Shown: positions 10,896 through 25,249 of the stretch, one piece after another | How positions within the stretch are numbered: the first letter of the stretch is position 1 | Layout of the letters: each line of letters opens with the position of its first letter | Assembly: GCA_016210005.1 (NCBI GenBank) | Contig: JACQVA010000158.1 | Location: 75,180-139,179 of the forward strand | Direction: 5' to 3' | From: Deltaproteobacteria bacterium | Lineage (GTDB): Bacteria > Desulfobacterota > Binatia > HRBIN30 > JACQVA1 | Length of the DNA: 64,000 nt | Made by a program: the position numbers and the translations under genes | Notes under the pieces: model-generated | Seen by the model: only the letters and a program-made list of their open reading frames with translations | Database searches by the model: none | What the model was told of the DNA's origin: nothing

Positions 10896-11519
10896 TCAGA
10901 CTTGGTGAGAGCGACGGGCCGCGATCTCTCGGCTGGCCACGACCAATTCCCGGAAGTGCCGTGCCATAAAGAGCACCTTGGTGCCGTCACGCCGCTTCAT
11001 GGCCAGTGCGACGCTGCGAACGGCTCGGTACAGTTCCATCAAGTCGTCGACCGCGGGCAGCGGGCCGTCGGCAACGAAGGCATTGGTCAGCGCACGCATG
11101 ACGCCCTCTGGTGTCCCTTCGTGCACGAAGGGGTCGAAGCCGTTCAGATCGCTGAGGCTCTTTTGCAGCCGATACGCCTTCGCCTCGAAGACAAACCAGC
11201 GGTGCGTATCGGATAACTGGCTGAGGCCGACGGCCAACCCGAGCTCGAACGGCATATTGAACCGTGGGCAGCGCGGCGGCTCGTGCGACCGCTCAACGCG
11301 CGACAGATCGTGAATCGAAGCGTCACAGCTCTGCAGCAACTGGACGATCCGATCCAGGCGATTCCATGCCCGCGCCTGCGGCGGAATCTCGAGCACACAC
11401 CGCGGGTCGAGACCCAGGCCGGTCAGTCCGGCGATGAAGGCCAAATACAGGCGTTCGAACTTCGCATCGTAGGGGATGTTCAGGAAGACGGTGGTGCGGC
11501 GCTTGGGGCCAGCGGTCAT
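10896..11519 (-). CDS. Hypothetical protein, weakly TIR-like N-terminus
   Basis: 207-aa ORF MTAGPKRRTTVFLNIPYD...; the pattern VFLNIPY / SIHDLS / FELGLA is reminiscent of a TIR-like fold, but weak. Confidence 0.35.
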   Translation of the reverse strand: MTAGPKRRTTVFLNIPYDAKFERLYLAFIAGLTGLGLDPRCVLEIPPQARAWNRLDRIVQLLQSCDASIHDLSRVERSHEPPRCPRFNMPFELGLAVGLSQLSDTHRWFVFEAKAYRLQKSLSDLNGFDPFVHEGTPEGVMRALTNAFVADGPLPAVDDLMELYRAVRSVALAMKRRDGTKVLFMARHFRELVVASREIAARRSHQV

Positions 11520-11552
11520 CCGCGATGGGAGGAGTCGGCGCCGGTTCAGGCG

Positions 11553-11759
11553 TCAGGCAGGCCGCGCTCGTTTGCGGGCGAGCGACCGGGACCGCGGCGC
11601 TGTGGTCCCGCGCCCCTGGCGTTCGCCATTCTTCTTGGTCACCGCGTCCACGAGCTTCCGGATCCGGCGCAGCTCCGTGGCCGAGACACCGAGCAGACGT
11701 GCGGTCTCTTCCGTGGAGGGAGGCGACGTCTCAATCAAGAACGGCTTCGGATGCGCCAT
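11553..11759 (-). CDS. Small helix-turn-helix protein (sigma-70 region-4 / excisionase-like)
   Basis: 68 aa, ETARLLGVSATELRRIRKL HTH-like segment. Confidence 0.3.
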   Translation of the reverse strand: MAHPKPFLIETSPPSTEETARLLGVSATELRRIRKLVDAVTKKNGERQGRGTTAPRSRSLARKRARPA

Positions 11760-11828
11760 GGATCACGTATACGTCTGGTTGAGTGTCGGGTCAACGACGC
11801 GTTGGCGATGGACAACCTCGAGAACCGC

Positions 11829-12205
11829 GTGTGGCAGATGACGCATCGCTGATCGTTCGGACGATCCTCCGTGTTTACGCTCGGCGTCCTCGGTGCCTCT
11901 GTGGTTGGCTTCCTCCTGACCATCAGCCACCTGCGATCAAGCGATATGCCCCCTCTGGCTTTCCACTTTCAACTTTGGACTTTGGACTGTGTTCCATCCC
12001 GATTCAGGCGCGACCGTTCGGGAAGGTCGAGCTGTAATCGAGGGGCACCGGGAACCGCGCGACGGGGGCTGCGGTGACCGCGTCTTCGATAACCGTTTCG
12101 AGGCCACGACGGAGCGCGCGAAAGGGGAAGCACGACGGCCCGGCGGCAATGGCCTCGACGTCGCCCGTGCCCTGGATCACTTCGCGGCACTCGCCGCTGG
12201 CCTTA
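11829..12205. repeat. Direct repeat R2 (hairpin part + core)
   Basis: Left part gtggcagatgacgcatcgctgatcgttcggacgatcc...ctgaccatcagccacctgcgatcaagcgat forms an imperfect inverted repeat; core shared with R1-R7. Confidence 0.8.
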
Positions 12206-12322
12206 TCCTGGTGGAATGGAGAAGAGGCCGAAGAGCGGATGCTCCCGCGCAAAGGCGCCATGCCGCAAAGCAGGCGAGGCAGGAGCCGCTGCCGTGGCTG
12301 CCGAAGCCACCACCCCCCGGGC

Positions 12323-12781
12323 TTATGCCGCTCTGGAACGGAGGTAGTCCAGGCTCCCGGGTACATCGCGCACGATGCGTAAGAGCGCATCGTACGCGAC
12401 GCTTTGAACCGCCCGTTCCGTTTCCCAGCGCGCGACGAGGTCTTTGTTGACTCGGAGAGCGCGTGCTAATGCCGCGGCGCTCAGCCCGAGTTCTCTCCGC
12501 AGCGCGCCGATCTCCGTGGCAGCGAGCAACCGGTGCTTGCGCCGATAGATGGCCTGAGCGGAACGGAAGAGCAGGCGAGCCTCCGCCAGCGTGAACAGAC
12601 CCTCTCCGCAGCGAGGGCAGCCAAGGTGAGCGACGTCGCGTACCTGGATCGGCTCACCGTTGATGGCTAGCCGTACCTGTCTGCGTGTCGGCTTCATCGC
12701 CGTGCCGCACGAGGGGCAGGTGTCATCGTCGGGGCGTCCCCCGGCCCCGCGCCGGTTGTGCCTATTGTTTGTCGTCTTCAT
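12323..12781 (-). CDS. mqsA: MqsA-type antitoxin (zinc-finger + XRE HTH)
   Basis: Two CxxC pairs (CPSCG...CPRCG) followed by an HTH (LLAATEIGALRRELGLSAAALARALRVNKDLVARWE); lies downstream of mqsR as in the canonical mqsRA order. Confidence 0.6.
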   Translation of the reverse strand: MKTTNNRHNRRGAGGRPDDDTCPSCGTAMKPTRRQVRLAINGEPIQVRDVAHLGCPRCGEGLFTLAEARLLFRSAQAIYRRKHRLLAATEIGALRRELGLSAAALARALRVNKDLVARWETERAVQSVAYDALLRIVRDVPGSLDYLRSRAA

Positions 12782-13076
12782 GGAAGGAGATGACCACACA
12801 GTCGGAACGAAGGGCGAGCTTCAAATAGACGGGAATACCAGCAACTTCTGGTTTGAAGACGTACAGCCATTCCGGTGAGGTCTGAGACCGCAGCCGTTCG
12901 CCGAAGTCGTCGCGGGTCAGCTCGGACAGGACGAGGCACACATCGTCCGGATCGAGGCTCAGGTCGAGCGCCGCCAGCTCCACGAGTGCCTTGTCCGTTA
13001 GCCGGACGCTGCCCGATGCTGCGAGAGTGTGAATGCGATTGAGAACCTTTGAAAGCCATCGAGGCATGCACCACAA
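12762..13076 (-). CDS. mqsR: MqsR-family mRNA interferase toxin
   Basis: 104 aa; C-terminus PVYLKLALRSDCVVISFHEDDKQ matches the MqsR ...VYLKITVIHDVLIVSFKEK pattern. Confidence 0.65.
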   Translation of the reverse strand: MWCMPRWLSKVLNRIHTLAASGSVRLTDKALVELAALDLSLDPDDVCLVLSELTRDDFGERLRSQTSPEWLYVFKPEVAGIPVYLKLALRSDCVVISFHEDDKQ

Positions 13077-13178
13077 GCATCGACCGGCACACAGAATAGC
13101 TCAGGTTACCGTCTCGCAGCAACCTCGCATTCTGTCGGTCCTCCTCGTCGTAAATGCTGGTATCGAGAAGAACCTTCG

Positions 13179-13373
13179 TCACGCGACGCCGAAGATGTCG
13201 GTGAATCCACCGACGGCCTTCACGCGACGGTGGGGGCGCACGATTGCTTCTTCGGCGAGCACGAGATCGAGCGCACGTTCCACCGTTTCCCGCTGCGTCT
13301 TGGTACGCAGGATGCGGCGGGCACGATCGATCTTGGTCTGGCTGAGGCGGACGACAGCGGCTTTCGTGGTCAT
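13179..13373 (-). CDS. Orphan VapB/RHH-like antitoxin
   Basis: MTTKAAVVRLSQTKIDRARRILRTKTQRETVERALDLVL; no adjacent cognate toxin. Confidence 0.35.
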   Translation of the reverse strand: MTTKAAVVRLSQTKIDRARRILRTKTQRETVERALDLVLAEEAIVRPHRRVKAVGGFTDIFGVA

Positions 13374-13429
13374 GATGAGACGCACGATATTGCGGTCGGC
13401 AAGTTCTGCAACCCGGCAGCGCAGCGGCC

Positions 13430-13560
13430 ATCGCCATCGCCGCACGGGCGCGCTGCGGTTCGCCATCCAGACCCAGGGTGGCCACAGTGACTATGTCGAG
13501 TGGCGCCAGCGCACGCTCGGCACGCTCTCCGTCGACCGCGCGACGGCCCGGCGGCAATCC
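13430..13560 (+). repeat. Partial duplicate of the small gene at 16317-16556 (ALRF[AS]IQTQGG...DY.E.RQRTLG segment)
   Basis: About 85% nt identity to 16385-16485; reads on the plus strand, converging on the PIN gene at 13577-14008. Confidence 0.6.
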
Positions 13561-13576
13561 CGGACGACAGTCGCGG

Positions 13577-14008
13577 CTACGGGCGTGTTATCTTCAAGCG
13601 TCCCGCGACCCGCTCTTCTGCCAGAAACTCATACGGCAGCCTGACGCGTAGCCCGTAGAACTGGCCGCCAAGAAGATCGGCGAAATCTTCGCGATCCAGC
13701 GTCAGCAGCGTTCTTGAGCACGCAAGCGCGGTGAAGAGAATCGGGCGGTCCTTGCTGGCGGCGAAGATCACTGGGCGATCCAGGGAGACGATGTCATCCA
13801 CGATCATGAGCTGCGGTCGCAGGCGCAGCCATTCCACCGTCCCAGCAGCGGGCAGCTTGGGGAGGTTTCGAATCACCTCGTTGATTGCATAGGCGCTGCT
13901 CACCAGCGTCCATCCGGCCGCTGGCGCGAGATGAAAAATCGCGCGCGATGATCCTTTGGCAGAACCGCACGCCGCCAGCAGTACGCTTGCGTCGAGAAAG
14001 ACCTTCAC
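13577..14008 (-). CDS. vapC: PIN-domain toxin VapC
   Basis: MKVFLDASVLLAA PIN N-terminus; 4-nt overlap with upstream antitoxin. Confidence 0.75.
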   Translation of the reverse strand: MKVFLDASVLLAACGSAKGSSRAIFHLAPAAGWTLVSSAYAINEVIRNLPKLPAAGTVEWLRLRPQLMIVDDIVSLDRPVIFAASKDRPILFTALACSRTLLTLDREDFADLLGGQFYGLRVRLPYEFLAEERVAGRLKITRP

Positions 14009-14205
14009 TGTCCGGCAAGGAAACGGCGGTAGCCTGCCTCGTCATCGGCGATCCACCGTTCCATTTGCTCGCGGCTGAACTCACGCGGCGGCGGCAACGG
14101 GCCACTCTCCGCGCGCAACCGCGTCGCGAGGAACAAGAACAGCTCTTCCTGCTGTTCCGCCGGCAGCGCGTCGGCGGCGGCTTCGATCTCAGCAAGGGTG
14201 CTCAT
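14005..14205 (-). CDS. Antitoxin (Unstab_antitox / addiction-module-component-like)
   Basis: MSTLAEIEAAADALPAEQQEELFLFL... pattern of the putative addiction module component family; immediately upstream of VapC. Confidence 0.5.
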   Translation of the reverse strand: MSTLAEIEAAADALPAEQQEELFLFLATRLRAESGPLPPPREFSREQMERWIADDEAGYRRFLAGQ

Positions 14206-14269
14206 GCGAACGAAGTAGCACGCCTGCGCCGCTGGCGGCAAGGCTTGAGGCGGTGCGGTGCAGTGCAGT

Positions 14270-14760
14270 GTTTGTCGATGAACTCGCGCATCGCTGATCG
14301 TTCGGACGATCCTCCGTGTTTACGCTCGGCGTCCTCGGTGCCTCTGTGGTTGGCTTCCTCCTGACCATCAGCCATCTGCGATCAGCGATATGCCCCCTCT
14401 GGCTTTCCACTTCCAACTTTGGACCTTGAGCTGTCTTCCAGCGTGATGATGTACAGGTGATTCGCGCTCGTCCCGATTCAGGCGCGACCGTTCGGGAAGG
14501 TCGAGATGTGATCGAGGGGCACTGGGAACCATGCGACTGGTGCTCCGGTGGCCGCGTCTTCGATGACCGTTTCCAGCCCGCGACAGAGCGCGCGAAAAGG
14601 GAAGCGTGACGGCCCGGCGGCAATGGCCGCGACGTCGCTTGTGCCCTGAATTACTTCGCGGCACTCGCCGCTCGCCGCGTTCCACGCCCGCACCGTCTGG
14701 TCATCAGACCCGCTGGCGATCGTCGTGCCGTCGGCGCGGAGTCCGGTCTTTGGGCGGCCC
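14270..14760. repeat. Direct repeat R3 (hairpin + core + extended WD40-like blade)
   Basis: atcgctgatcg...gaccatcagccatctgcgatcagcgat hairpin then core; minus-strand frame encodes DGTTIASGSDDQTVRAWNAASGECREVIQG. Confidence 0.8.
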
Positions 14761-14871
14761 TCTTCGTCCGGAGCTCCGCGTTTACGCGACAAACAGGACG
14801 CGCCGCGCCTGGTCGGGCTTGCGCAGTCCGATTTCGACGTCGAGCTGTTGTCCCTCCGCCCGCGCCTTGGG

Positions 14872-15132
14872 TCACCCCTGTCGGCTGATCAGCCGCTCGT
14901 ATTCGTCGTGGGGACCGATCCAGACCCAGATGAAGTCGGCGCCGTCTTCGACCGCGAGGGCGCGGTGGGTAAGACCGGCCCGCACTGACCAGAGCTTGCC
15001 GACTTTCTTGAAATGGAGAGACGGATGGGCAGGATTCGCGCGCAGGAGTTCGAAATTCTCTCGCGCCACTCGCTGAGCTGACTGGGGCAAGCCAGCCAGG
15101 CGGGCCCAGAAGCGCGCGGTGGTGCGATGCAT
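14872..15132 (-). CDS. parE: ParE/RelE-family toxin
   Basis: 86 aa, WSVRAGLTHRALAVEDGADFIWVWIGPHDEY typical RelE/ParE C-terminus. Confidence 0.7.
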   Translation of the reverse strand: MHRTTARFWARLAGLPQSAQRVARENFELLRANPAHPSLHFKKVGKLWSVRAGLTHRALAVEDGADFIWVWIGPHDEYERLISRQG

Positions 15133-15333
15133 TCAGAGATCCCTGAGTTTGCCCTTCGCTTTCTCGTCGCCCGCTTCGCGGATCAGAAAATCGAGTCTGC
15201 CAGCCTGGGAGTCCGCCTCGATCTGCCGATCCCACCGCTCCCAGTCCTTCTCCGAGAGCCAGCGAAACAGCTCGCCGAGCTCCTCGGCGGGAAGCTGCTC
15301 GATTTCAGCTTTGAGTTCCTCTACGCGAGACAT
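15133..15333 (-). CDS. Antitoxin, putative addiction module component (Unstab_antitox-like)
   Basis: MSRVEELKAEIEQLPAEELGELFRWLSEKDWERWDRQIEADSQAGRLDFLI; directly upstream of parE. Confidence 0.6.
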   Translation of the reverse strand: MSRVEELKAEIEQLPAEELGELFRWLSEKDWERWDRQIEADSQAGRLDFLIREAGDEKAKGKLRDL

Positions 15334-15499
15334 CCGAACCTCCGTCCGACTCAAACCATACTGGAAGCACCCTCGGGCTTCCAGTGTCCGCAGCGGGACT
15401 GGTTGGCGGTGAATGCTGCAGGTGCAGAGCTGTTCTCCCTTCGTCCCGCCGTACGTCCGCAACTCCACTTCCAAGCTTGGACCTTAGACCTTGGACTTC

Positions 15500-15795
15500 G
15501 GACTCTCTTCCCCCTCCGGCTTTCCACTTTCAGCTTTCGGCTTTGAGCTGTCCTCCAGCGTGATGATGTACAGGTGGTTCGCGCTCGCCCCGACCCAGGC
15601 GCGACTGTCTGGGAAGGTCGAGATGTGATCGAGGGGCACCGGGAACCACGCGACGGGGGCCGCGGTGGCCGCGTCTTCGATGACCGTTTCCAGCCCCCGA
15701 CGGAGCGCGCGAAAGGGGAAGCGCGACGGCCCGGCGGCAATGGCCTCGGCGTCGCCCGTGGCCTGGATCACTTCGCGGCACTCACCGCTCGCCGC
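15500..15795. repeat. Direct repeat R4 (core)
   Basis: ggctttccactttcagctttcggctttgagctgtcctccagcgtgatgatgtacaggtg... core shared with other copies. Confidence 0.8.
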
Positions 15796-15829
15796 TGATT
15801 GAACTCGTTGAGCTGAACTCGTTGAGAGC

Positions 15830-16327
15830 TTGCCGAATTCCGATTGTGGCGGTACCGTACTCCTTGTGCGCATCTATCTGAACACGAGCGCGCTGAGCCG
15901 GCCGTTCGATGATCTGTCTCGCAGCCGAGCGCGTCACGAGGCAGAAGCCGTGAGCATGGTCGTCGCCGCCATTGAGGCACGACAGGCGGAGCTGGTCGCA
16001 TCGGAGTACTTGGTCTTCGAGCTGAGCCAGCATCCTGATCAAGAGCAAGCGCAGCGGATCGCGACCCCACTGCGGCTGGCCAAGACCATGGTGAAAGCCT
16101 CCGCTTCAGTAACCCTGCGAGCCCGCACCCTGGAGCAGTTTGGCCTGCGCGGATTAGATGCGCTGCACATCGCCAGCGCTGAAGCTGGAAAAGCGGATCT
16201 GCTCGTTACGACGGACGACCGGATGCTGAAGCGGGCGACGCGTGCGCGCGCCATGCTTCACGTGCGAGTGCTCTTGCCGGCAAGTGCCCTGGCGGTCATC
16301 TCGGAAGGAGGATCCCATGAAGAGTGA
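15830..16327 (+). CDS. vapC: PIN-domain toxin VapC-like
   Basis: TTG 15830 or in-frame GTG 15866 (MRIYLNTSALSRPFDD); PIN fold motifs. Confidence 0.7.
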   Translation: MPNSDCGGTVLLVRIYLNTSALSRPFDDLSRSRARHEAEAVSMVVAAIEARQAELVASEYLVFELSQHPDQEQAQRIATPLRLAKTMVKASASVTLRARTLEQFGLRGLDALHIASAEAGKADLLVTTDDRMLKRATRARAMLHVRVLLPASALAVISEGGSHEE

Positions 16328-16556
16328 GCGATTGACCGATGCGCAAGTCCGCGCCCTCGGGTGGGAAGCCTTGGTGGAGAAGCTCGGCCCCACGGGCGCG
16401 TTGCGGTTCAGCATCCAGACCCAGGGTGGCAACGGCGACTATGCCGAGTTGCGCCAGCGCACGCTCGGCCCGCTCTCCGTCGACCAATTGCTGGCCCGCA
16501 TGCGGTCGTCGTCGAAGACGGCCCGCCCCCGCCCGCGTCGCAGGCAACGGCCCTAA
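16317..16556 (+). CDS. Small protein overlapping the PIN gene 3-prime end (possible cognate antitoxin)
   Basis: MKSERLTDAQVRALGWEALVEKLGPTGALRFSIQTQGGNGDYAELRQRTLG...; 11-nt overlap with the PIN gene; a partial copy exists at 13430-13560. Confidence 0.4.
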   Translation: MKSERLTDAQVRALGWEALVEKLGPTGALRFSIQTQGGNGDYAELRQRTLGPLSVDQLLARMRSSSKTARPRPRRRQRP

Positions 16557-16589
16557 CAGCGTAACAGCCTAACCCCTTAACAACCTGTC

Positions 16590-16905
16590 CTCTGATCTAT
16601 TTTCGAGGCTGATGATGTACAGATGATTTGCGCTCGCCCCGACCCAGGTGCGACCGTTAGGGAAGGTCTTGATGTGCTCGAGGGGCACCGGGAACCACGC
16701 GACGGGGGCGGCGGTGGCCGCATCTTCGACGACCGTTTCCAGTCCCCGACGGAGCGCGCGAAAGGGGAAGCGCGACGGCCCGGCGGCAATGGCCTCGACG
16801 TCGCCCCGGCCCTGGATCACTTCGCGGCACTCGCCGCTCGCCGCGTGCCACACCCGCACCGTCTGGTCCGCAGCCCCGCTGACGACCCGTTGACGCATTT
16901 GGAAG
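16590..16905. repeat. Direct repeat R5 (core + extended blade)
   Basis: Core plus minus-strand RQRVVSGAADQTVRVWHAASGECREVIQG. Confidence 0.8.
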
Positions 16906-16967
16906 CGTCGCGCTGTGTCCGTTGCGGACCTCTGTGATATAGTTTGAACGGCAGTGGAGGAATACGG

Positions 16968-17216
16968 ATGCCGGCCCAGACCATAGAAGCACGGCTCCAC
17001 GCGCTCGAACGAGAGGTCACCCAGATCAAGCAGCTGCTGCAAGGCAAATCGGGGTCGGGCGACCCGTGGTGGGAACGCATCGCTGGAGCTTTTGAAGACG
17101 ATCCAGTCTACCAGCAAGCGATGAAGCTCGGACGGCAATACCGCGAATCCTTGCGGCCGAAGGGGCGCGAGCCTCGCGCGAAGAATCATGGTCGTCCTCG
17201 ACACCGACCATCTTAG
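16968..17216 (+). CDS. VapB-type antitoxin
   Basis: RBS GGAGG 7 nt upstream of ATG 16968; MPAQTIEARLHALEREVTQIKQLL; 3-prime end overlaps the VapC start. Confidence 0.55.
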   Translation: MPAQTIEARLHALEREVTQIKQLLQGKSGSGDPWWERIAGAFEDDPVYQQAMKLGRQYRESLRPKGREPRAKNHGRPRHRPS

Positions 17217-17618
17217 CCTGGTGGAATGGCGGGCGGGTTCGGACGCACGTTCGCTTCGTGCCCGACTGCGAGGAGTGGACCCCGCGTCAGTTGTCTCGAC
17301 CATCATCACCTTCGAGGAGCAAATGCGGGCTGGCTCGCGCAGTTGGCGAAGGCGCGGACGATGGCGCAGCAAGTCGCTGCCTACAGCCGGCTGAGCCGCC
17401 ACGTCCGCACGTTTCGCGAGGTGCCATTGCTGGAATTTGATGAGCGGGCTGCCGTCGAGTATCAGCGCCTGCGCAAGCTGCACCCCAGGACCGGCTCCAT
17501 GGACCTGAAGATCGCCGCCATCGTCCTGATCCACGGCGCCACGCTCCTCACAAGAAACGCGGCTGACTTCGGCGGAATACGTGGCCTGACAATCGAGGAT
17601 TGGACCGGGCTCGCGTGA
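17188..17618 (+). pseudogene. vapC: VapC PIN toxin disrupted by a frameshift near 17325-17340
   Basis: N-terminus MVVLDTDHLSLVEW...VSTIITFEEQ in frame 1 terminates at 17394; the conserved C-terminal half (WLAQLAKAR...DLKIAAIVLIHGATLLTRNAADFGGIRGL) continues in frame 0 (ORF 17226..17618). Confidence 0.55.
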
Positions 17619-17654
17619 CGCAAGGCCGAGCCGCCGTGCTCGCTCGGTGTCCTC

Positions 17655-17880
17655 GGTGTCTCTGTGTTTGCCTCCCCGCTGAGCCATCAGCCATCTGCGA
17701 TCAGCGATATGCTCCCTCTGGCTTTCCACTTTCAGCTTTCGCCTTTGAGCTGTCTTCTCCGCCCTCGAACGTGATGATGTACAGGTGATTCACGCTCGTC
17801 CGACCCAGGCGCGACCGTTCGGGAAGGTCGAGATGTGATCGAGGGGCACCGGGAACCGCGCGACGGGGGCTGCGGCTCCT
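17655..17880. repeat. Direct repeat R6 (right hairpin arm + truncated core)
   Basis: gagccatcagccatctgcgatcagcgatatgctccctctggctttccactttcagc...gtgatgatgtacaggtg...; core ends abruptly at ~17880. Confidence 0.7.
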
Positions 17881-17934
17881 ACAGTCACCGCGTGCTTGAG
17901 CCGCCTCGCGGAACTCGGCTATGATGTCGTTCAG

Positions 17935-18357
17935 ATGAAGGTCTTCCTCAGTTACGCCACTGTCGACAACAAGTGGGCGAGTCAGCTCCGTGAGCGGCTT
18001 GCCCACGCGGGTCTCGATGTGTGGGACCCGAACCGCGAGGTTCTTCCGGGCCAGGACTGGTCTGGGAAGATCAGCGGAGCCCTGCGCGACTCCGATGCAA
18101 TGGTTGTGCTGGTGTCACCGCAGGCCGCCGAGTCCGATTCAGTTCGGCGCGAGATCGAGTACGCACTCGGGTCGCCGCGCTATGCGCACCGCCTGATTCC
18201 CCTCGTCATCCGGCCCACGAGGAAGCTGCCGTGGATCCTGGAGCAGCTGCAGATGGTCCCGCTCAACAATAACATCGAGCGAGCCGCCCGAGCGATCGTC
18301 AAGCGACTGGAGCAGGGCACTGAGCGCGGCAAAGAAGCGCGGGCTGCGGCCCACTGA
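17935..18357 (+). CDS. TIR-domain protein (ThsB-like, TIR-only)
   Basis: MKVFLSYATVDNKWASQLRERLAHAGLDVWDP...AMVVLVSPQAAESDSVRREIEYAL canonical TIR layout; alternative upstream TTG 17896. Confidence 0.65.
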   Translation: MKVFLSYATVDNKWASQLRERLAHAGLDVWDPNREVLPGQDWSGKISGALRDSDAMVVLVSPQAAESDSVRREIEYALGSPRYAHRLIPLVIRPTRKLPWILEQLQMVPLNNNIERAARAIVKRLEQGTERGKEARAAAH

Positions 18358-18787
18358 GATCTTTCTCGCGCATTCCGCCCGCGACGTCGTCTTCGTCGCG
18401 GGGCTTGCCGAGCGGCTACGCGCCGATGGGATGCTCCCGTGGTACAGCGAGCGGCATATCGTCGGTGCGCGGCAATGGCACGACGAGATCGGCCAGGCCC
18501 TTGAGCGCTGCGATTGGTTCGCCGTGGTCCTCTCGCCATCGTCGGTGCGATCGGAATGGGTCAGACACGAGTTGCTCTACGCACTGGGCGAGGCACGTTA
18601 CCGGCGCCGGATCGTCCCGATCCTCTACCGGGCTTGTCAGGTCACTCGCCTCTCGTGGACCCTGCCAAGCTTTCAGTACATCGACTTCACAAAGGGATTC
18701 GACCCTGGCTACGCGGCTCTCCTTCGGGTCTGGGCGCGCGCATCAGCCTCCACGAGTGCGCGCCCATATCGGAGCCGCTCAAGGTGA
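18344..18787 (+). CDS. Second TIR-domain protein; conserved N-terminal beta-strand lies upstream of the only ATG, and no canonical start is in frame
   Basis: Frame open from stop 18194-18196 to 18787. Conserved IFLAHSARDVVFVAGLAERLRADGMLPWYSE...VVLSPSSVRSEWVRHELLYAL begins ~18359, but the first ATG/GTG/TTG is at 18431; only CTG at 18344. Frame is +1 relative to the preceding TIR gene, which ends at 18357. Confidence 0.45.
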   Translation: MRPTEIFLAHSARDVVFVAGLAERLRADGMLPWYSERHIVGARQWHDEIGQALERCDWFAVVLSPSSVRSEWVRHELLYALGEARYRRRIVPILYRACQVTRLSWTLPSFQYIDFTKGFDPGYAALLRVWARASASTSARPYRSRSR

Positions 18788-18807
18788 GCCGATCGGAAGG
18801 GACCCGC

Positions 18808-19290
18808 TTGTGGCAGATGGCATATGGCTGATCGTACGGACGACAGTTCGTGCGCTGGCTGGGTCTCCTCGGCGACTCTGTGTTTGCCTCCTCGCTGGAC
18901 CATCAGCCATCTGCGATCAGCGACATGCTCCGTCTGGCTTTGAGCTTTCAGCTTGTGGCTTGTAGCTCTCTCCGAGCGTGATGATGTACAAGTGATTCGC
19001 GCTCGCCCCGACCCAGGCGCGACCGTTCGGGAAGGTCGAGATATGATCGAGGGGCACCGGGAACCGCGCGACGGAGGTTGCGGTGGCCGCGTCTTCGATG
19101 ACCGTTTCCGGCCCCCGACGGAGCGCGCGAAAGGGGAAGCGCGACGGCCCGGCGGCAATGGCCTCGACGTGCGCCTCGCGGTCGCCCGTGCCCTGGATCA
19201 CGTTCCGCTCGCCGCTCGCCGCGTCCCAGACAGGCATCGTGTTGTCCAGAGGCGCGCTGACGATGGTGCGCCGTCAGCGCTCGGCGTCGA
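18808..19290. repeat. Direct repeat R7 (hairpin + core with ~15-bp insertion + diverged blade extension)
   Basis: ggcagatggcatatggctgatcg...gaccatcagccatctgcgatcagcgac hairpin; core 18960-19260. Confidence 0.8.
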
Positions 19291-19880: not shown

Positions 19881-20147
19881 CTACTGGCCGACCGTTATTG
19901 AAAGCAATCGCGCACATGATCGAGCGCCGCTTCCTCGCGAACGCCCCAGCGCAGGTCGATGGCCTGAAAGCGGCAGCCATGCCGTGCACACAGCTCCCGC
20001 AGACCTGCCCTGAGCGCAGTCGAACGGGCGCGGGAACACGTCGCGCTGCAAGGCGTCGCGCTCACGCTTGAGGTCCGTGAATGTCGAGCTGACGAAGACT
20101 CGAATGACAGGCCGGCGGCGGGGTTGTGCGTTGTCGTCTTCAATCAT
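19881..20147 (-). pseudogene. DUF4062 N-terminal fragment, internally frameshifted
   Basis: IRVFVSSTFTDLKRERDALQRDVFP in one frame (ORF 19881..20147) continues as LRELCARHGCRFQAIDLRWGVREEA in another (ORF 19895..20143); ~90 aa remnant only. Confidence 0.5.
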
Positions 20148-20327: not shown

Positions 20328-21557
20328 TCACTCCGCCCACAACGCTGACAACGGCACGAGCCACAGTTGATCGCCGGACGGTACAACCTGGTCACCCAAG
20401 TAAAGCACGATGCCGGCGGCGAACCGTTTGCGCAGTTGATCGCGCAAGGCGCGCAGCGCCGCGAAATCGGAGGCATCCACCGTGGCGCTGGCTTTGACTT
20501 CTACGGCGGCGATCGACCCGTCGGCCTTTTCCAGCACGACATCCACTTCCGAGCCGGTCGCCGTGCGAAAGTGGCACAGCGACGTTTGCGGATCCGTCCA
20601 GGAAATCTGCTTGTGGAGTTCGCCCACGACAAACGTCTCCAACATTCGCCCCAGCAAGGCGCGATCCTCGGTGAGCCGCCGGGCATTCGCGCCGAGGAGG
20701 TGGCAGGCCAAGCCGGTGTCCACCAGATGTAGTTTGGGCGCTTTGACCAGACGCTTGCCGAGGTTCGGCGACCACGCCGGCAGCCGATGAACCAGGAACA
20801 CCGTTTCCAGCAGCGACAGGTAGCGCGTCAGCGAGGTGTGCGGCAAGCGGGCGTCGCGACCCACGTCGGCGAGGTTCAGCAAGCCAGCGGCCCGGGCCGC
20901 CAGCAGCTTGAGCAGATTCGGCAGCGCGTGTAACGCGTCCACCCGCGCCAGATCGCGCACGTCTCGTTGCAGAATCGTGGAGATGTAGGACGCGAACCAC
21001 GCCGCCCGGCGTCCTTCATCTTTGCGCGCGACTGCTTCCGGGTAACCGCCGCGAGCCAATCGGACCGCAAGCTCATTCTTTGCGGAAACCAATTTCGCCT
21101 TGCCGACCGTGCCATCGAACAGGCGCTTCAAGAAGCCCTCGCGTTTGCCTGCGATTTCTCCCACCGAAAACGGAAACAAGGGAACGACCTCCATCCGCCC
21201 GGCCAGCGATTCCGACAACCGTGGCAGCGTCATCACATTGGCCGAACCAGTCAGCAGGAAGCGACCGGGCCGGCGGTTCTTGTCCACCGCGAGTTTGATG
21301 GCGGGAAACAGATCGGGGGCTTTCTGAATTTCATCGACAACGACCGGGCCAGACACGTTGCGAATGAACCCGGCCGGATCGCCGGCCGCCAACGCCAGCG
21401 TGGCGGCATCGTCGAAGGTGAAGTATTGCGCCCCGGTCTCTTCCGCGATCGCGCGGACCAGCGTGGTCTTCCCGGTCTGCCGCGCGCCGTTGAGCAGCAC
21501 CACCGGCGTGTCGGCCAACGCCTGCCGAATCGAGCCTTCGATGCTCCGCCGAATCAC
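20328..21557 (-). CDS. AAA+ ATPase with C-terminal DUF4143 (COG1373 family)
   Basis: 409 aa, Walker A GARQTGKTT, typical AAA_14 + DUF4143 architecture. Confidence 0.8.
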   Translation of the reverse strand: MIRRSIEGSIRQALADTPVVLLNGARQTGKTTLVRAIAEETGAQYFTFDDAATLALAAGDPAGFIRNVSGPVVVDEIQKAPDLFPAIKLAVDKNRRPGRFLLTGSANVMTLPRLSESLAGRMEVVPLFPFSVGEIAGKREGFLKRLFDGTVGKAKLVSAKNELAVRLARGGYPEAVARKDEGRRAAWFASYISTILQRDVRDLARVDALHALPNLLKLLAARAAGLLNLADVGRDARLPHTSLTRYLSLLETVFLVHRLPAWSPNLGKRLVKAPKLHLVDTGLACHLLGANARRLTEDRALLGRMLETFVVGELHKQISWTDPQTSLCHFRTATGSEVDVVLEKADGSIAAVEVKASATVDASDFAALRALRDQLRKRFAAGIVLYLGDQVVPSGDQLWLVPLSALWAE

Positions 21558-21639: not shown

Positions 21640-21760
21640 TCTTCTCGCTGATGGCTGATGGCCGATGGCAGGTCCCCCAATCAAGAGCGATAGCTCGGTG
21701 GTCGGCCCTCCACTGACCATCAGCCATCTGCGATCGGCCGTCTGCAAGCGGCCCGAGATC
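21640..21760. repeat. Solo copy of the repeat hairpin (R8), without the canonical core
   Basis: gctgatggctgatggccgatggcag...ctgaccatcagccatctgcgatcgg: inverted arms gatggctgatgg / ccatcagccatc ~60 bp apart. Confidence 0.6.
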
Positions 21761-21931: not shown

Positions 21932-24900
21932 TCAGGACCGTTTTGGCACCAGGCGCAACCTATCCCTGGCACTGCTTTTTCGCCGTGATTGTGTGGCAGT
22001 GCCGCTGCGTCCCAGCACCTCCTCCATCCGAGCACGAATCGCGGCAGTATTATGGCCGAGTGCCGCCAGGCAGGCCTCATAATTTCCTATGGAATCTCGC
22101 AAGTTCCGATGCTCACCACCCATAGACTTGCTTATTGCCAAGTGCCCCTCCAGTGCGCGGCGGTAGAGTGGCTCCGCTGCTGCATAATCTCCTTTGCTTA
22201 CAAGTACGAACCCCAAGTTGTTCACGCTCTTTAAGGTCTCGGGATGCTCGGCTCCCAGCACCCTGTCCATTGCACCGAGTGCCCGGCAGAAGAGCGGCTC
22301 TGCCCTCGCGTAGTCCCCATTGCCAGCTAGCAGTCCCGCCAAGTCGCTCACGCTCACCAGAGTGTCACGATGCTCGGCTCCCAGCACCCGCTCCCTCCCC
22401 TTAAGAGCACCCCGCAAGAGCAGTTCCGCCTCCGCATAGCCCCCCTTGCGTTGAAGCAGTCCCGCGAGGTTTCTCATTGTCTCCAAGGTGTCTGGATGCT
22501 CGCTCCCCAGGATCCGCTCCGTCGCATTGAGCGCGCGCCGGTAGAGCGGCTCGGCTTCCGCGTAGTCCCCCTTTTTTGCGAGCAGTCCCGCGAGGATGCG
22601 CACTGTTTCCAAGGTGTTTGGATGCTCGATCCCCAGGATCCGCTCCGTCGCATTGAGCGCGCGCCGGTAGAGCGGCTCGGCTTCCGCGTAGTCCGCCTTC
22701 TCCGCCAGCAGCCCCGCTAGATGGCTCAGGCTCCTTAGGGTGTCGGGATGTTCTCCCAGAACCCGTTCCCTCCCCTTGAGAGCACGCCGGTAGAGCAGTT
22801 CCGCCTCTGCGTAGCCCGCCTTCTTCGTCAGTAGCACCGCTAGGTTGTTGACACAGGTCAAGGTGAGGGGATGATCGAGCCCCAGCAGCCCCTCCATCGC
22901 TTCGAGCGCGCGCCGGTATTGCGCTTCAGCCCCCAGGAAGTCCCCTTTGCTTGACAGCAATGCCGCCAGATTGTTCAGGCTCGTCAAGGTATTGGAATCG
23001 TCGGTGCCCGAAACCCGCTCACTTGCCGCGAGCGCGCGCCGGAAAAGTGCCTCGGCCTCGGCGTACTGTCCCGAGTCGTTATGGAATACAGCCGCTTCGT
23101 TGAGAACATACGCCAGCCGGTCCGGCGGAAGGTTGGGCTCCGCCTCGGCGACGGTATGGCGGTACACTTCCAACGGGTCGTAGCGTTCGCTGAGCGCCAA
23201 CCAAAGCCCGTGCAGCTCCCATTTCCAGCGCTCGGTGGAGCGCAGTCGGAGGAAGGTCGGCAGGTCGGCCAGCAGGTCCTTCAGCCGCTCCCACTCAGCA
23301 GTATCCCGCAGCAGCGCCGGCAGTTCGTCGAGCTTGCGGTTGGTGGGTTCGGTCATCGCCGCGAAATACCCGGCCAGTTGCAGGCGGAACTGCCGCACAG
23401 TGTCCGCTTCCTCAAGCCAGCGGTTGTGCACCGCCGCGCGCAGGTAGTCGTGGCCGAAGTTGAGCAGCCCGGCGCGCACGGCCAGGGCGTTCTCGGCGGC
23501 GAGGTGCAAGGGTGTCCACGGACGGCGAGGCAACGGCTCGCCGCCGTTGCCGAGCAGGTCCAGCAGCTCCGGTTCCGACAGCCCGAAGCGGGCGCAGGCG
23601 ATGAGGCAGAGGCTGCAGCGCACGAGGTCGGGATGCTCGGGGTCGCGCCCGAAGTCTTCGTGCCAGCGGGTGAGAATGCGGTCGAAGAGTGTTGGAAGGC
23701 CGGGGCGGAGAGATACCAGGCGGTGCGCTCGGCCAGGCGCCGGTGTTCGCCGAACTGGCGCAGCTCGTCGAGCACCGCGCGCAGGAAGAGGGCGTTGCAC
23801 GCCGCCGAGGTGGACTCGAGCTGGGCGAGGATCTCCTCCGGTAACTTCTTGCTGAAGACCGCAAAGTAGGCCGTGGCCGCCGGCGCGATGTCGGCGCGGC
23901 CGAAGAGCGGCACGGCCAGCTCCGGCCAGCCGCGTTTCTTCAGGGCTTCGAGGCTCTCGCCCGGCAGCGACGACACGAACAGACACACATTGCGCGGCAC
24001 CACGACCGGCAGCCAGCCGAGCTGGCGGGCGGCGGCATCGTCGCCGGAGAGCTGGTTGAGCGCATCCAGAACGAGCACGATGCGGCGTGAGCCAGCCGTC
24101 TTGACGAACCAGTCGTTGAGAGCTGTCCGCAGCGCGTCGGCCTGGATCGGTATCTCATCTGCAATGCCGAAGGCGCGCCTCAGCTCGCCGAGGATGCGAC
24201 GGACGATCCCCTGCCAGTCGGCGCTTTCCACCGTGCTGCCGATGTAGTGCTGGATGACGAGGTCGTCGGGGTGCTGCTCGCGCCAACGCGCCACCCACTC
24301 GGCCAGCAGCGCCGACTTGCCGCAGCCCGACTCGCCGGTAACGACTAGCGGTTCGGCAGACTGTTGAGGAACCCCACCCGATGCTTCGACAGGCTCAAGC
24401 ATGAGCGGAACCCCTTCCCGAGATCGCAGCCGCCGCATGCTCATCGATGCGGCGGAGCAGATCCTCGCGCCCGACGAAGGCGAGCCGGCGGCTCTGCGCA
24501 TACGCTTCGTGGCGCGCCGCCTCCTGATCCAGCGGGTCCGGCACCTGCTCCGCCGGATAGAGCGCGTCGATGATGGCGGTGAAGTCGGCCAGCACCAACT
24601 CGCCCAGCGCCTCGGGATTGGGGTAGTTCTCGCGCACTCGGGATTCGCTTGTTTGGAGTTCCGCGTTTACGCGGCCCGAACCGCCTGAAGGCGGAACTCC
24701 GAACCGGGCGCGGATGGCGTCTTTGAGTTGGCGCAGTTTCTCCCGACTTTCGCCATTCTCGGAGACGAAGTCCCCGCGTTTCTCTGCCGGCACGGTGTCC
24801 ACGAAAGCCGGATCGCGGAAGTAGAACAGCGAGCGGTCGGCCATCGCGGGGTTGCGCAACACACCGTGTAGGATCTCCAGCTCCGTCACTGAATGCTTGA

Positions 24901-25249
24901 GATGCTCCCGCAGCCACGGCTGCGATTCGAGCAGGTCGGCGGGAATTGACTGCGGCACCCAGCCGTAGCGTTCGCCGAGCAGGCCGATGAAGTAAGGACG
25001 GCAGCGTTCGATCTCCGCCAGGCAGAGCGGCAGCACCTTGCCCTCGGCCGTCTCCTCGTCAGTGATCCCCCAGCGCAGGTCCACCTCCGTCCACGACACC
25101 GCGCGCTCTTCGCACAGCTTGCGCAGCTGCGGGAAGATTTTCTTGATGAGAATGTCCCGCTCCGCCTGCATGTCGCGGAAGGTGGAGGAGACAAAGACGC
25201 GGATGACGCGTGGTTGAGTCACCGCACTCGGCTTCGGTTGTTCAGCCAT
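21932..25249 (-). pseudogene. DUF4062 - NACHT-like P-loop NTPase - TPR repeat protein, disrupted by at least two frameshifts
   Basis: Three consecutive minus-strand ORFs in different frames: 24395..25249 (DUF4062, VIRVFVSSTFRDMQAERD...FVGREDLLRRIDEH), 23353..24501 (Walker A LVVTGESGCGKSALL, Walker B IVLVLDALNQ) and 21932..23986 (>=8 TPR units). Frame switches at ~24400-24500 and ~23690-23720. Confidence 0.6.

What the first reader, a model, noticed from the sequence alone, without database searches (positions are those of the whole stretch)
17896..18787. Tandem TIR-only genes; the second lacks a canonical start for its conserved N-terminus
Two ThsB-like TIR proteins lie back to back with no SIR2/Macro ThsA-type partner in the cassette. 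The first ends with TGA at 18355-18357. The second gene's conserved first beta-strand (EIFLAHSARDVVFVAG...) lies upstream of the first ATG (18431). Between the in-frame stop at 18194-18196 and 18431 there is no ATG, GTG or TTG, only CTG at 18344. The second frame is +1 relative to the first TIR gene. Options: a non-canonical start, a decayed gene, or a +1 frameshift producing a TIR-TIR fusion.
Basis: seen in the sequence. Interest (0 to 1): 0.55.

Follow-up and report, generated by a model that had tools for sequence, protein, structure and literature searches.

The report
TIR gene pair with CUG start
A 0.9-kb cassette carries two overlapping genes for TIR-domain (NAD-cleaving, immune-type) proteins; the second has no ATG/GTG/TTG start but is still under purifying selection, most likely because it is translated from a rare CUG codon inside the end of the first gene.

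Summary
TIR1 (17935-18357) and TIR2 are both Pfam TIR_2 domains. TIR2's first strand lies upstream of ATG 18431. No ATG/GTG/TTG follows the in-frame stop at 18194.

Seven other lineages of the same clade (L007, L097-L106) also lack a canonical start, so this is not a sequencing error. In all eight lineages GGAG (18309-12) and CTG 18320 are invariant. CTG 18344 (GenBank's annotated start) and ATG 18431 occur only in this window. The sister clade has ATG one codon upstream of the CTG 18320 position. TIR2, including the stretch before 18431, is under purifying selection (omega about 0.12, dS about 0.8).

Best reading: TIR2 is a full-length 155-aa protein started at CUG 18320, overlapping TIR1 by 38 nt. 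Nothing supports a +1 frameshift fusion.

Caveat: five of the eight start-less lineages have since lost TIR2 by frameshift or deletion, so silent decay remains a serious rival.

The TIR1-TIR2 pair is a widespread stand-alone two-gene module (69 of 70 related loci). It has no conserved third gene, so it is not Thoeris. Interest is modest.

The parts
17896..17925 (+). Promoter-like site TTGAGC - 18 nt - TATGAT. It ends 9 nt before the TIR1 ATG, which would give a leaderless or nearly leaderless mRNA (inferred).
   Evidence: It is the only sigma-70-like match in 17600-19000 (0.2 expected). Both hexamers and the 9-nt distance to the ATG are conserved in clade relatives and recognisable in the sister clade. 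No Shine-Dalgarno sequence precedes the TIR1 ATG (dG -1.7).
17935..18357 (+). TIR1 gene: 140 aa, MKVFLSY...RAAAH, stop TGA 18355-57. Putative catalytic Glu73 is at 18151-18153.
   Evidence: Pfam TIR_2 at 1.5e-25. Orthologs start at the same ATG. Omega is 0.09 against L007. It is intact in all 8 clade lineages.
18295..18319 (+). Proposed translation-initiation region of TIR2, inside the 3' end of TIR1. It includes the GGAG Shine-Dalgarno-like tetramer at 18309-18312, 7 nt before CTG 18320.
   Evidence: Third codon positions of TIR1 are invariant across 8 lineages from 18295 to 18315. Over the last 19 codons, 5 of 19 vary against 84 of 121 elsewhere (P=5e-4). Anti-SD duplex dG is -5.7, equal to that of the ortholog ATG (-5.6).
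18320..18322 (+). Proposed CUG start codon of TIR2.
   Evidence: It is invariant in 8 lineages, while the codon just upstream is hypervariable (GCA/GCC/GTC/GTT/GAC). It lies one codon downstream of the position of the sister clade's ATG.
18320..18787 (+). TIR2 gene as proposed: 155 aa plus stop. It overlaps TIR1 by 38 nt (18320-18357) in the +1 frame. Catalytic Glu is at 18569-18571.
   Evidence: Pfam TIR_2 at 8.3e-24. In the AF2 model (pLDDT 82), beta-A is residues 13-17 and alpha-A is 20-35, both upstream of Met38 (= ATG 18431). Omega is 0.12-0.13 before and after 18431. The WV[KR]xEL motif is invariant in the family.
18344..18346 (+). CTG used as the TIR2 start in the GenBank record (MBI4517172.1, 147 aa). 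It is not conserved.
   Evidence: The 147-aa product MRPTEIFLAHS... is. This codon is CGG in the other 7 lineages. SD dG is -3.9.
18431..18433 (+). First ATG of the TIR2 frame. It is a window-specific Leu-to-Met change, not a conserved start.
   Evidence: It is CTG in all other clade members and TTC in the sister clade. Starting here would remove beta-A and alpha-A.
17624..17875 (+). Upstream flanking copy of the array repeat, cut short by the TIR cassette.
   Evidence: Homology of the cassette to other genomes begins at 17880-17898.
18824..19280 (+). Downstream flanking copy of the array repeat. Alignment suggests it begins about 18790, right after the TIR2 stop.
   Evidence: Cassette homology ends at about 18792-18803.

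Best explanation
The locus is a self-contained cassette of about 0.92 kb (about 17880-18800). It holds a promoter-like site and two paralogous TIR-only genes (29% identical).

TIR1 (17935-18357) is the faster-evolving partner. TIR2 is the conserved partner with an invariant catalytic-Glu motif, so it is the likelier NAD+-cleaving or signal-making subunit.

TIR2 is a separate full-length gene of 155 aa. Its translation starts at the near-cognate codon CUG 18320, 7 nt downstream of a GGAG, inside the last 38 nt of TIR1 and in the +1 frame. In this clade the CUG sits one codon from where the sister clade has its ATG.

By analogy with E. coli measurements (CUG gives 1-2% of AUG), TIR2 would be made at a low level relative to TIR1.

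Shown:
- the anatomy;
- the absence of a canonical start in 8 lineages;
- purifying selection on the start-less N-terminus;
- conservation of GGAG and CTG.

Inferred:
- that CUG 18320 is the codon actually used;
- the leaderless TIR1 mRNA;
- NADase activity;
- a role in defence or abortive infection.
For: 1. It is not an artefact. L007 (Binatia MAG) and L097-L106 come from independent assemblies and share the start-less junction.
2. The stretch is translated. For 18356-18430, omega is 0.124 at dS 0.79, the same as the rest of TIR2 (0.132). Frame 2 upstream of the CTG gives omega 0.73, which means it is not coding.
3. Selection continues on this lineage. Window-specific changes are 8 synonymous against 7 conservative non-synonymous (P=0.02 against neutrality). 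For L007 the counts are 24 against 14 (P=1.6e-6).
4. The position agrees with relatives. The sister clade (L003, L006) starts TIR2 at an ATG 44 nt before the end of the TIR1 stop, which aligns one codon upstream of CTG 18320.
5. CTG 18320 and GGAG are invariant in 8 lineages, and the adjacent codon is hypervariable.
6. Synonymous variation in TIR1 is suppressed from 18295 onward (P=5e-4. Window against L007: P=0.02).
7. SD strength is -5.7 kcal/mol, against -3.9 for CTG 18344, -2.5 for ATC 18359 and -2.6 for ATG 18431.
8. A start at 18431 would delete beta-A and alpha-A.
9. In E. coli, CUG, AUA, AUC and AUU initiate at 1-2% of AUG (bioRxiv 10.1101/063800).
Against: - There is no direct evidence of translation (no proteomics or ribosome profiling).
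- CUG is a weak initiator, and its use in this lineage (Binatia-like MAG) is unknown.
- Part of the CTG conservation is forced by the overlapping TIR1 codons (xCT GAG). Only the T is free in that frame.
- In the start-less clade TIR2 is disrupted in 5 of 8 lineages, against about 2 of 70 in the wider family (Fisher P=5e-5). That is what one expects if losing the ATG weakened selection on TIR2.
- GenBank's pipeline chose a different CTG (18344).
Confidence: 0.55

Rival explanations
1. TIR2 in this window is a silenced gene on its way to becoming a pseudogene. The ancestral ATG was lost, little or no protein is made, and the ORF is still open only because too little time has passed.
For: - There is no canonical start.
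- In the same clade, TIR2 carries independent 1-nt frameshifts in L100/101, L106 and L098/099.
- TIR2 is deleted after about 106-111 nt in L097 and L102/103, while TIR1 stays intact.
- That is 5 of 8 lineages, against about 2 of 70 in the wider family (P=5e-5).
- L106 shows relaxed constraint on its own branch, 2 synonymous against 6 non-synonymous.
Against: - The start-less state is ancestral to the whole clade. Even so, TIR2 shows omega 0.06-0.3 in all pairwise comparisons, with dS up to 0.8.
- The window's own branch still shows constraint (8 synonymous, 7 conservative non-synonymous; P=0.02).
- The GGAG/CTG region is more conserved than TIR1 coding alone explains.
Confidence: 0.2
2. TIR2 is translated from another near-cognate codon. 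One candidate is CUG 18344, as annotated in GenBank. The other is AUC 18359, reached by re-initiation of the ribosome that has just terminated TIR1 at UGA 18355-57, one nucleotide upstream.
For: - GenBank protein MBI4517172.1 begins at CTG 18344.
- AUC and AUA are near-cognate starts.
- One family member (L067) starts with GTG exactly at the position equivalent to 18359, so the leader is dispensable.
- Residues 1-8 of the leader are predicted disordered.
- Most family members have TIR2 starts overlapping or abutting the TIR1 stop, which fits coupling.
Against: - CTG 18344 is CGG in all 7 other lineages.
- Both sites have weak SD scores, -3.9 and -2.5.
- The extra constraint at 18295-18319 is not explained by a start at 18344 or 18359.
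- The P-x-E motif just before beta-A is kept in the family and in this clade.
Confidence: 0.15
3. A programmed +1 ribosomal frameshift near the TIR1 stop makes a TIR1-TIR2 fusion protein of about 31 kDa.
For: - The frames are +1 apart, and the TIR2 frame is open across the junction.
- A natural single-ORF TIR-TIR fusion exists (P0001, 292 aa, 39% identity over 98% of a fused query).
- The junction is very conserved.
Against: - There is no slippery site. The P-site codon before UGA is CAC, which cannot re-pair on ACU.
- No SD-like stimulator lies 3 nt upstream.
- The last sense codon varies among relatives (CAC, CGT, CGC).
- The sister clade has the same overlap but its own ATG for TIR2.
- Junction conservation is explained by dual coding.
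- Frame 2 upstream of 18320 is not under coding constraint (omega 0.73).
Confidence: 0.04
4. The real product is the 118-aa protein from ATG 18431, a TIR fragment lacking the N-terminus.
For: - It is the only canonical start. The 118-aa sequence is what standard gene callers output (cluster representative P0115).
- In three frameshifted relatives the indel joins the C-terminal ~100 residues to an upstream out-of-frame canonical start.
Against: - ATG 18431 is unique to the window; it is CTG elsewhere.
- SD dG is -2.6.
- The product would lack the central strand beta-A and helix alpha-A.
- The 25 codons upstream are under the same purifying selection as the rest of the gene.
Confidence: 0.04

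Closest known systems
Thoeris ThsB (TIR sensor/signal synthase working with a ThsA effector)
   Same: Both are small TIR-only proteins. TIR1 passes the PF08937 ThsB_TIR cut-off (31.4 bits against 21.2). Some Thoeris loci carry several ThsB genes in tandem (own knowledge; also stated in PMC13069673).
   Different: No ThsA-type effector (SIR2/SLOG, Macro, TM, caspase-like) sits in the cassette or is conserved next to about 70 related pairs. TIR2 does not hit PF08937. The NCBIfam Thoeris type III ThcB4 model scores 38 bits against a cut-off of 220.
Stand-alone bacterial TIR NADases (AbTir, BtTir 7uxr, PdTIR 3h16, BtpA/TcpB)
   Same: These are the best sequence and fold matches to TIR2. The W-x-x-x-E[LI] catalytic-Glu motif is present and invariant in the TIR2 family.
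   Different: Those proteins are single genes that self-associate. Here two diverged paralogs are encoded as an obligatory-looking pair, which suggests a hetero-oligomer (inferred). Enzymatic activity is untested.
SPARTA TIR-APAZ (short pAgo-associated TIR)
   Same: It gives the top PADLOC matches for both proteins (Aga_TIR-PNTD, 1e-15 and 4e-11) and good structural matches.
   Different: Only the TIR domain matches. There is no APAZ domain and no Argonaute gene.
Plant paired TIR-NLRs RRS1/RPS4, where a TIR-TIR heterodimer has one TIR restraining the other (own knowledge)
   Same: Both involve two different TIR domains that function as a pair. A natural fusion of the two bacterial TIRs (P0001) argues that they interact physically.
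   Different: The plant TIRs are parts of large NLR receptors. Whether TIR1 restrains or activates TIR2 here is unknown.
Bacterial genes with near-cognate start codons (for example infC AUU; rare CUG starts allowed by table 11)
   Same: A near-cognate codon with a proper SD sits in place of AUG, and low expression is expected (1-2% of AUG in E. coli).
   Different: The start lies 38 nt inside the upstream gene. The autoregulation known for infC is not implied here.

Membership tests
TIR domain superfamily (Pfam TIR_2, PF13676) | Profile match above the curated cut-off, covering the whole domain | tested here: met
   TIR1 scores 90.5 bits and TIR2 84.8 bits (cut-off 28), matching profile positions 1-117 and 1-121 of 122.
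TIR domain superfamily (Pfam TIR_2, PF13676) | Flavodoxin-like fold with beta-A as an N-terminal core strand | tested here: met
   The AF2 model of TIR2 has pLDDT 82 and pTM 0.78, with beta-A at residues 13-17. Foldseek gives probability 1.00 to PdTIR, SPARTA TIR, BtpA and AbTir.
Catalytic (NADase-type) TIR | Conserved catalytic glutamate in the W-x-x-x-E motif | tested here: met
   TIR2 has E at 18569-71 (WVRHEL). It is invariant in 37 of 37 distinct family motifs and aligns with the E-L of BtTir and PdTIR. TIR1 has E at 18151-53, but across the family this column is E 51, D 10, other 3.
Catalytic (NADase-type) TIR | NAD+ cleavage or cyclic-ADPR-type product formation | not testable with these tools
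   This needs a biochemical assay.
Thoeris anti-phage system | ThsB-type TIR protein | tested here: inconclusive
   PF08937 hits TIR1 only (31.4 bits, far below its TIR_2 score). TIR2 has no hit. PADLOC ThsB models match weakly, E 1e-7 to 1e-3.
Thoeris anti-phage system | Adjacent ThsA-type effector (SIR2/SLOG, Macro/TM, caspase-like) | tested here: not met
   The cassette holds only two genes between repeats. Clustering the neighbours of 95 loci finds no conserved third gene. Sampled neighbours are housekeeping genes.
Thoeris anti-phage system | NCBIfam equivalog score (type III ThcB4) | tested here: not met
   38.4 bits against a cut-off of 220.
Programmed +1 ribosomal frameshift (prfB type) | Slippery P-site codon able to re-pair in the +1 frame, next to a stop or hungry codon | tested here: not met
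   The site is GCC CAC UGA G. CAC cannot re-pair on ACU, and the codon varies (CAC/CGT/CGC) among relatives.
Programmed +1 ribosomal frameshift (prfB type) | SD-like stimulator about 3 nt upstream of the shift site | tested here: not met
   The sequence upstream of CAC UGA is GCGGGCUGCGGCC, with no GGAGG-like element.
Near-cognate (CUG) initiated bacterial gene | In-frame near-cognate codon upstream of the conserved N-terminus, with an SD at 5-10 nt | tested here: met
   GGAG 18309-12 lies 7 nt before CTG 18320, with dG -5.7, in about the top 5% of positions in the region.
Near-cognate (CUG) initiated bacterial gene | Conservation of the codon and its SD in relatives that also lack a canonical start | tested here: met
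   Both are invariant in 8 lineages, and synonymous variation upstream is suppressed.
Near-cognate (CUG) initiated bacterial gene | Protein N-terminus mapped to that codon | not testable with these tools
   This needs N-terminal proteomics or initiation-site profiling.
Type II toxin-antitoxin pair (the kind of cassette that fills the rest of the array) | A small toxin plus a cognate antitoxin (usually DNA-binding), where loss of the antitoxin is not tolerated | tested here: not met
   Both genes are TIR domains with no DNA-binding domain. Either gene can be lost alone in close relatives: TIR1 carries a nonsense mutation in L002/L004, and TIR2 is deleted or frameshifted in L001, L097, L098, L100, L102 and L106.

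The most novel reading that the evidence does not exclude
The TIR1-TIR2 pair is an undescribed, self-sufficient two-TIR immune or abortive-infection module. It is spread across Acidobacteriota, Planctomycetota, Verrucomicrobiota, Bacteroidota and Binatia. A fast-evolving TIR1 would sense or regulate, and an invariant catalytic TIR2 would cleave NAD+ or make a signal, with the two acting as a hetero-oligomer (the natural fusion P0001 supports this). In this clade the switch from AUG to CUG would act as a throttle that keeps the dangerous subunit far below its partner. The clade would then show what follows such a switch: repeated, independent loss of TIR2 while TIR1 persists alone.
Probability: 0.25. 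Interest if true: 0.6.

Novelty: new variant of a known kind. Interest (0 to 1): 0.35.

Why it matters
- Gene annotation. Standard gene callers truncate TIR2 (118, 115, 120 or 80 aa) or miss it. GenBank picks a CTG that is not conserved, and for TIR1 a TTG that is probably the -35 box. Comparative data give a better gene model.
- TIR biology. TIR-only proteins without an effector partner are usually read as orphan ThsB or as virulence factors. Here two diverged TIRs form a conserved, operonic pair, often translationally coupled and occasionally fused, with no third gene. That points to hetero-oligomeric TIR action in bacteria.
- Evolution. The clade gives a natural series: ATG, then CUG, then frameshift or deletion. 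It can be used to ask how start-codon weakening relates to gene loss in costly immune genes.

None of this overturns current knowledge.

Tried and rejected
- The invariant 21-mer junction (GCGGCCCACTGAGATCTTTCT) was scanned in genome contigs and metagenome contigs. There were no hits.
- A protein-pattern scan of viral contigs found no relatives.
- A tblastn search of plasmids found only distant TIR proteins, 41% identity or less.
- Rfam on the whole window found nothing.
- L062/L067 first looked like a second, independent start-less lineage. They have GTG at the codon after Glu1, giving MFISHS, so they were rejected as a parallel case.
- A single ATG-to-AGG point mutation at 18314 was considered. 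After allowing for a 3-nt indel, the ortholog ATG aligns with GCA 18317-19, so the loss was not a single substitution.
- Positive 'TIR1 stop' offsets for some loci (for example L064/L069) come from tblastn alignments running through stops. They are not fusions.
- Literature searches for two-TIR operons, bacterial TIR heterodimers and type III Thoeris found no description of this pair.
- A hairpin GGGC-UGCG-GCCC (18341-18352) just before the TIR1 stop was considered as a frameshift stimulator. It is not kept in the sister clade and does not sit where known stimulators sit.
- No multimer or fusion structure was predicted, because paired alignments could not be submitted and interface coordinates are not returned.
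Full report
**What is in the sequence.**
- The + strand of 17896-18787 holds two TIR-domain ORFs. Both match Pfam TIR_2 far above the cut-off (90.5 and 84.8 bits).
- The first ends with TGA at 18355-57.
- The second is in the +1 frame, which is open from 18197 after TGA 18194-96.
- Pfam profile position 1 of TIR2 aligns with Ile 18359. An AlphaFold2 model (pLDDT 82, pTM 0.78) places strand beta-A at residues 13-17 and helix alpha-A at 20-35, counted from codon 18320. Met 18431 is residue 38, so a protein starting at ATG 18431 would lack the central strand.
- Between 18197 and 18430 there is no ATG, GTG or TTG.
CTG 18320, ATA 18269 and ATC 18359 are also in frame.
- TIR1 really starts at ATG 17935 (MKVFLSY), as in every ortholog.
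- That promoter-like site is conserved in relatives and ends 9 nt before the ATG. TIR1 has no Shine-Dalgarno sequence (dG -1.7). A leaderless TIR1 mRNA is therefore plausible, but this is an inference.

**Source and existing annotation.**
- A repeat-encoded peptide next to the cassette is 100% identical to HY699_15295 of an NCBI MAG, 'Deltaproteobacteria bacterium', on a 174.5-kb contig.
- In that record TIR1 is MBI4517171.1 (153 aa, TTG 17896).
- TIR2 is MBI4517172.1 (147 aa, MRPTEIFLAHS...), so the NCBI pipeline already used a non-canonical start, CTG 18344.
- Other gene callers give the 118-aa ATG product (P0115).

**Relatives.** A search with a fused TIR1+TIR2 query found three kinds of hit.
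- A genuine single-ORF TIR-TIR fusion: P0001, 292 aa, 39% identity over 98% of the query, confirmed on its contig.
- TIR2 orthologs P0002 and P0003, which begin MRRATARRRVLRPTEIFLSH.
- A TIR1 ortholog, P0004, which ends RAAAH.

On their contigs (L003, L006) TIR1 and TIR2 are in tandem. The TIR2 ATG lies 44 nt before the end of the TIR1 stop. In the DNA alignment that ATG corresponds to GCA 18317-19 of the window, and a 3-nt indel follows. The next window codon is CTG 18320.

**The start-less state is shared.**
- A genome scan found L007, a Ca. Binatia MAG, with TIR1 89% and TIR2 79% identical.
- The 90% cluster of TIR1 gave L097-L106.
- Together with the window these make eight distinct lineages. 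None has ATG/GTG/TTG upstream of beta-A.
- All eight have GGAG and the CTG equivalent to 18320. The codon just before that CTG is GCA, GCC, GTC, GTT or GAC.
- CTG 18344 is CGG in the other seven lineages. ATG 18431 is CTG in the others.

This rules out a sequencing error. It also rules out GenBank's CTG and the first ATG as conserved starts.

**Is the start-less N-terminus translated?** Nei-Gojobori comparison of the window with L007:

| Region | omega | Note |
|---|---|---|
| TIR2, 18356-18430 (before the ATG) | 0.124 | dS 0.79 |
| TIR2, rest of the gene | 0.132 | |
| TIR1 | 0.093 | |
| Frame 2 upstream of 18320 | 0.73 | not coding in that frame |

- All pairwise comparisons in the clade stay at omega 0.06-0.3 for both halves of TIR2.
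- Changes specific to the window lineage are 8 synonymous and 7 conservative non-synonymous (P=0.02 against neutrality). For L007 they are 24 and 14 (P=1.6e-6).

The clade has therefore kept TIR2 under protein-level selection while lacking a canonical start.

**Where does translation start?**
- Across the eight lineages, 84 of 121 third codon positions of TIR1 vary before 18298. Only 5 of the last 19 vary (P=5e-4). The seven codons 18295-18315 are invariant. The window-L007 pair alone gives P=0.02.
- This extra constraint starts about 25 nt upstream of CTG 18320. That fits a ribosome-binding region there better than one serving 18344 or 18359.
- Anti-SD pairing is -5.7 kcal/mol for CTG 18320, the same as for the ortholog ATG (-5.6). 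It is -3.9 for CTG 18344, -2.5 for ATC 18359 and -2.6 for ATG 18431.
- In E. coli, CUG, AUA, AUC and AUU initiate at 1-2% of AUG (10.1101/063800).

I therefore place the start at CUG 18320. That gives a 155-aa protein and a 38-nt overlap with TIR1.

The main weakness is that two of the three CTG bases are also fixed by the overlapping TIR1 codons. Only experiment can prove which codon is used.

**The frameshift idea.**
- The site GCC CAC UGA G has no codon that can re-pair in the +1 frame.
- It has no upstream SD-like stimulator.
- The last sense codon varies (CAC, CGT, CGC) among relatives.
- The sister clade keeps the same overlap with its own ATG.
- The striking junction conservation is what dual coding predicts. 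Every synonymous site of one frame is a first or second codon position in the other frame.

The natural fusion P0001 shows that the two TIRs belong together. It does not show that this locus makes a fusion.

**The decay caveat.** Within the start-less clade, TIR2 is disrupted in several lineages.
- L100/101 carry a 1-nt deletion, L106 a 1-nt insertion and L098/099 a 1-nt deletion. Two of these alleles (L100/101 and L098/099) are each seen in two independent assemblies.
- In L097 and L102/103, TIR2 is deleted after about 106-111 nt.
- TIR1 is intact everywhere.
- That is 5 of 8 lineages, against about 2 of 70 in the wider family (P=5e-5).
- L106 shows relaxed constraint on its own branch (2 synonymous, 6 non-synonymous).
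- In the sister clade, L001 has lost TIR2, and L002/L004 carry a TIR1 nonsense codon.

The module is therefore often lost, and losing the ATG may have lowered selection on TIR2. For this window the data still favour a working gene, but I give silent decay 0.2.

**What the pair is.**
- A metagenome scan returned 80 loci with TIR2 relatives of 51-60% identity.
- In 69 of the 70 distinct loci that have enough upstream DNA, a TIR1-like gene lies directly upstream on the same strand (L031 counted by inspection).
- All 72 distinct pairs outside the clade have a canonical TIR2 start: ATG 50, TTG 12, GTG 10.
- The gap between the genes is mostly -4 to +20 nt, and 13 pairs have 4-nt overlaps.
- No third gene is conserved. 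Sampled neighbours are housekeeping genes such as MoaA, aldehyde dehydrogenase, enoyl-CoA hydratase and NusB.
- Hosts include Acidobacteriota, Planctomycetota, Chthoniobacterales, Cytophagaceae and Binatia.
- TIR2 is the conserved partner. Its WV[KR]xEL motif has an invariant Glu in 37 of 37 distinct motifs. TIR1 is more variable: median identity is 43% against 57% for TIR2, and the Glu column is E 51, D 10, other 3.
- The two are paralogs, 29% identical.
- The best solved relatives are stand-alone bacterial TIRs and SPARTA TIR domains.
- No PADLOC or NCBIfam model identifies the pair as a named system.

It fails the Thoeris test because there is no ThsA. It also fails a classical toxin-antitoxin test, because either gene can be lost alone.

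My inferred mechanism is a hetero-oligomeric TIR enzyme. TIR2 would be the catalytic subunit and TIR1 the variable sensor or regulator. TIR2 expression would be tied to, and here kept well below, that of TIR1.

**Context in the window.**
- The cassette (about 17880-18800) recurs at 83-91% nucleotide identity in at least six different genomic contexts.
- Here it sits in an array of seven same-orientation repeats (10643-19280). The other slots hold MqsRA, VapBC/PIN and ParE-like pairs.
- The array lies between an AAA-RyR gene and fragments of DUF4062/TPR STAND genes.

**Verdict.**
- The best explanation is non-canonical CUG initiation of a full-length TIR2 (0.55). Decay (0.2) and other near-cognate starts (0.15) are the rivals. 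A frameshift fusion is unlikely (0.04).
- Novelty is modest: a new variant of known things, namely a TIR-only gene pair and a near-cognate start.

Noticed in passing
window 10643-19280 (copies at 10643-10885, 11842-12202, 14250-14800, 15510-15795, 16593-16885, 17624-17875, 18824-19280; remnant 21694-21738): Seven same-orientation copies of a composite repeat (core about 220 nt, up to about 450 nt, 80-89% identical) separate two-gene cassettes that lie in both orientations. The cassettes are MqsR/MqsA, VapB/PIN, ParE-like plus partner, PIN, antitoxin plus PIN, and the TIR pair. On the minus strand the repeat reads as the 3' end of a WD40-type ORF (...VRVWDAASGECREVIQG...NHLYIITLE). Database relatives of that peptide are WD40 proteins or short ORFs. 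L102 also has this repeat upstream of the TIR cassette. No integrase or attC-like site was looked for. How the array forms is unexplained.
   Followed up: partly
L100:3505-3852, L106:536-898, L098:2076 onward (equivalent to window about 18456-18490): Three independent 1-nt indels in TIR2 of close relatives fall within 32 nt of each other (P about 0.014-0.047 if placement were uniform). Each one puts the C-terminal ~100 residues in frame with an upstream out-of-frame canonical start: TTG, ATG and GTG. The window has its own unique in-frame ATG (18431) in the same area. This could be chance, a mutational hot spot, or selection for an N-terminally truncated product. It is unresolved.
   Followed up: partly
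L002:1364-1366 and L004 (TIR1 codon 61); L001:946-1106: In the ATG-bearing sister clade, TIR1 carries a TCA-to-TAA nonsense mutation in two assemblies while TIR2 stays intact. In L001, TIR2 is replaced by unrelated sequence about 25 nt after its conserved beginning. Either gene of the pair can be lost alone.
   Followed up: yes
window 17896 and 18344 (GenBank MBI4517171.1, MBI4517172.1): Both annotated start codons in the public record look wrong. TTG 17896 is the -35-like hexamer of the conserved promoter, and orthologs start at ATG 17935. CTG 18344 is not conserved in any relative.
   Followed up: yes
L096:670-1548 (P0001): This is a natural single-ORF TIR1-TIR2 fusion (292 aa, two TIR_2 domains). 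It lies next to a phage-integrase fragment on a 2.2-kb metagenome contig.
   Followed up: partly
window 6064-9012 (-); L100:59-2734 (-); L007:2980-3528: A 982-aa AAA ATPase with a C-terminal RyR domain lies 9 kb upstream of the cassette. RyR-domain genes sit directly next to the TIR cassette in L100/L101 and L007. In L100 a 1618-aa DUF4062-nSTAND1-WD40 gene lies nearby, and it may be the source of the WD40-like repeat. The window's array may have grown by insertions between these genes.
   Followed up: no
window 19881-20147 (-), 21932-25249 (-), 20328-21557 (-): A DUF4062 / NPHP3-like / TPR STAND-type gene appears split into three overlapping ORFs (24395-25249, 23353-24501, 21932-23986). A separate DUF4062-like N-terminal fragment lies at 19881-20147, and a DUF4143 AAA ATPase sits between them. 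The picture suggests a decaying or rearranged defence island.
   Followed up: no
window 18341-18352: A small GC hairpin, GGGC-UGCG-GCCC, lies immediately upstream of the TIR1 stop. It is present in the start-less clade and weakened in the sister clade (GTGC...). The terminator scan picked up its minus-strand version. No function is assigned.
   Followed up: no
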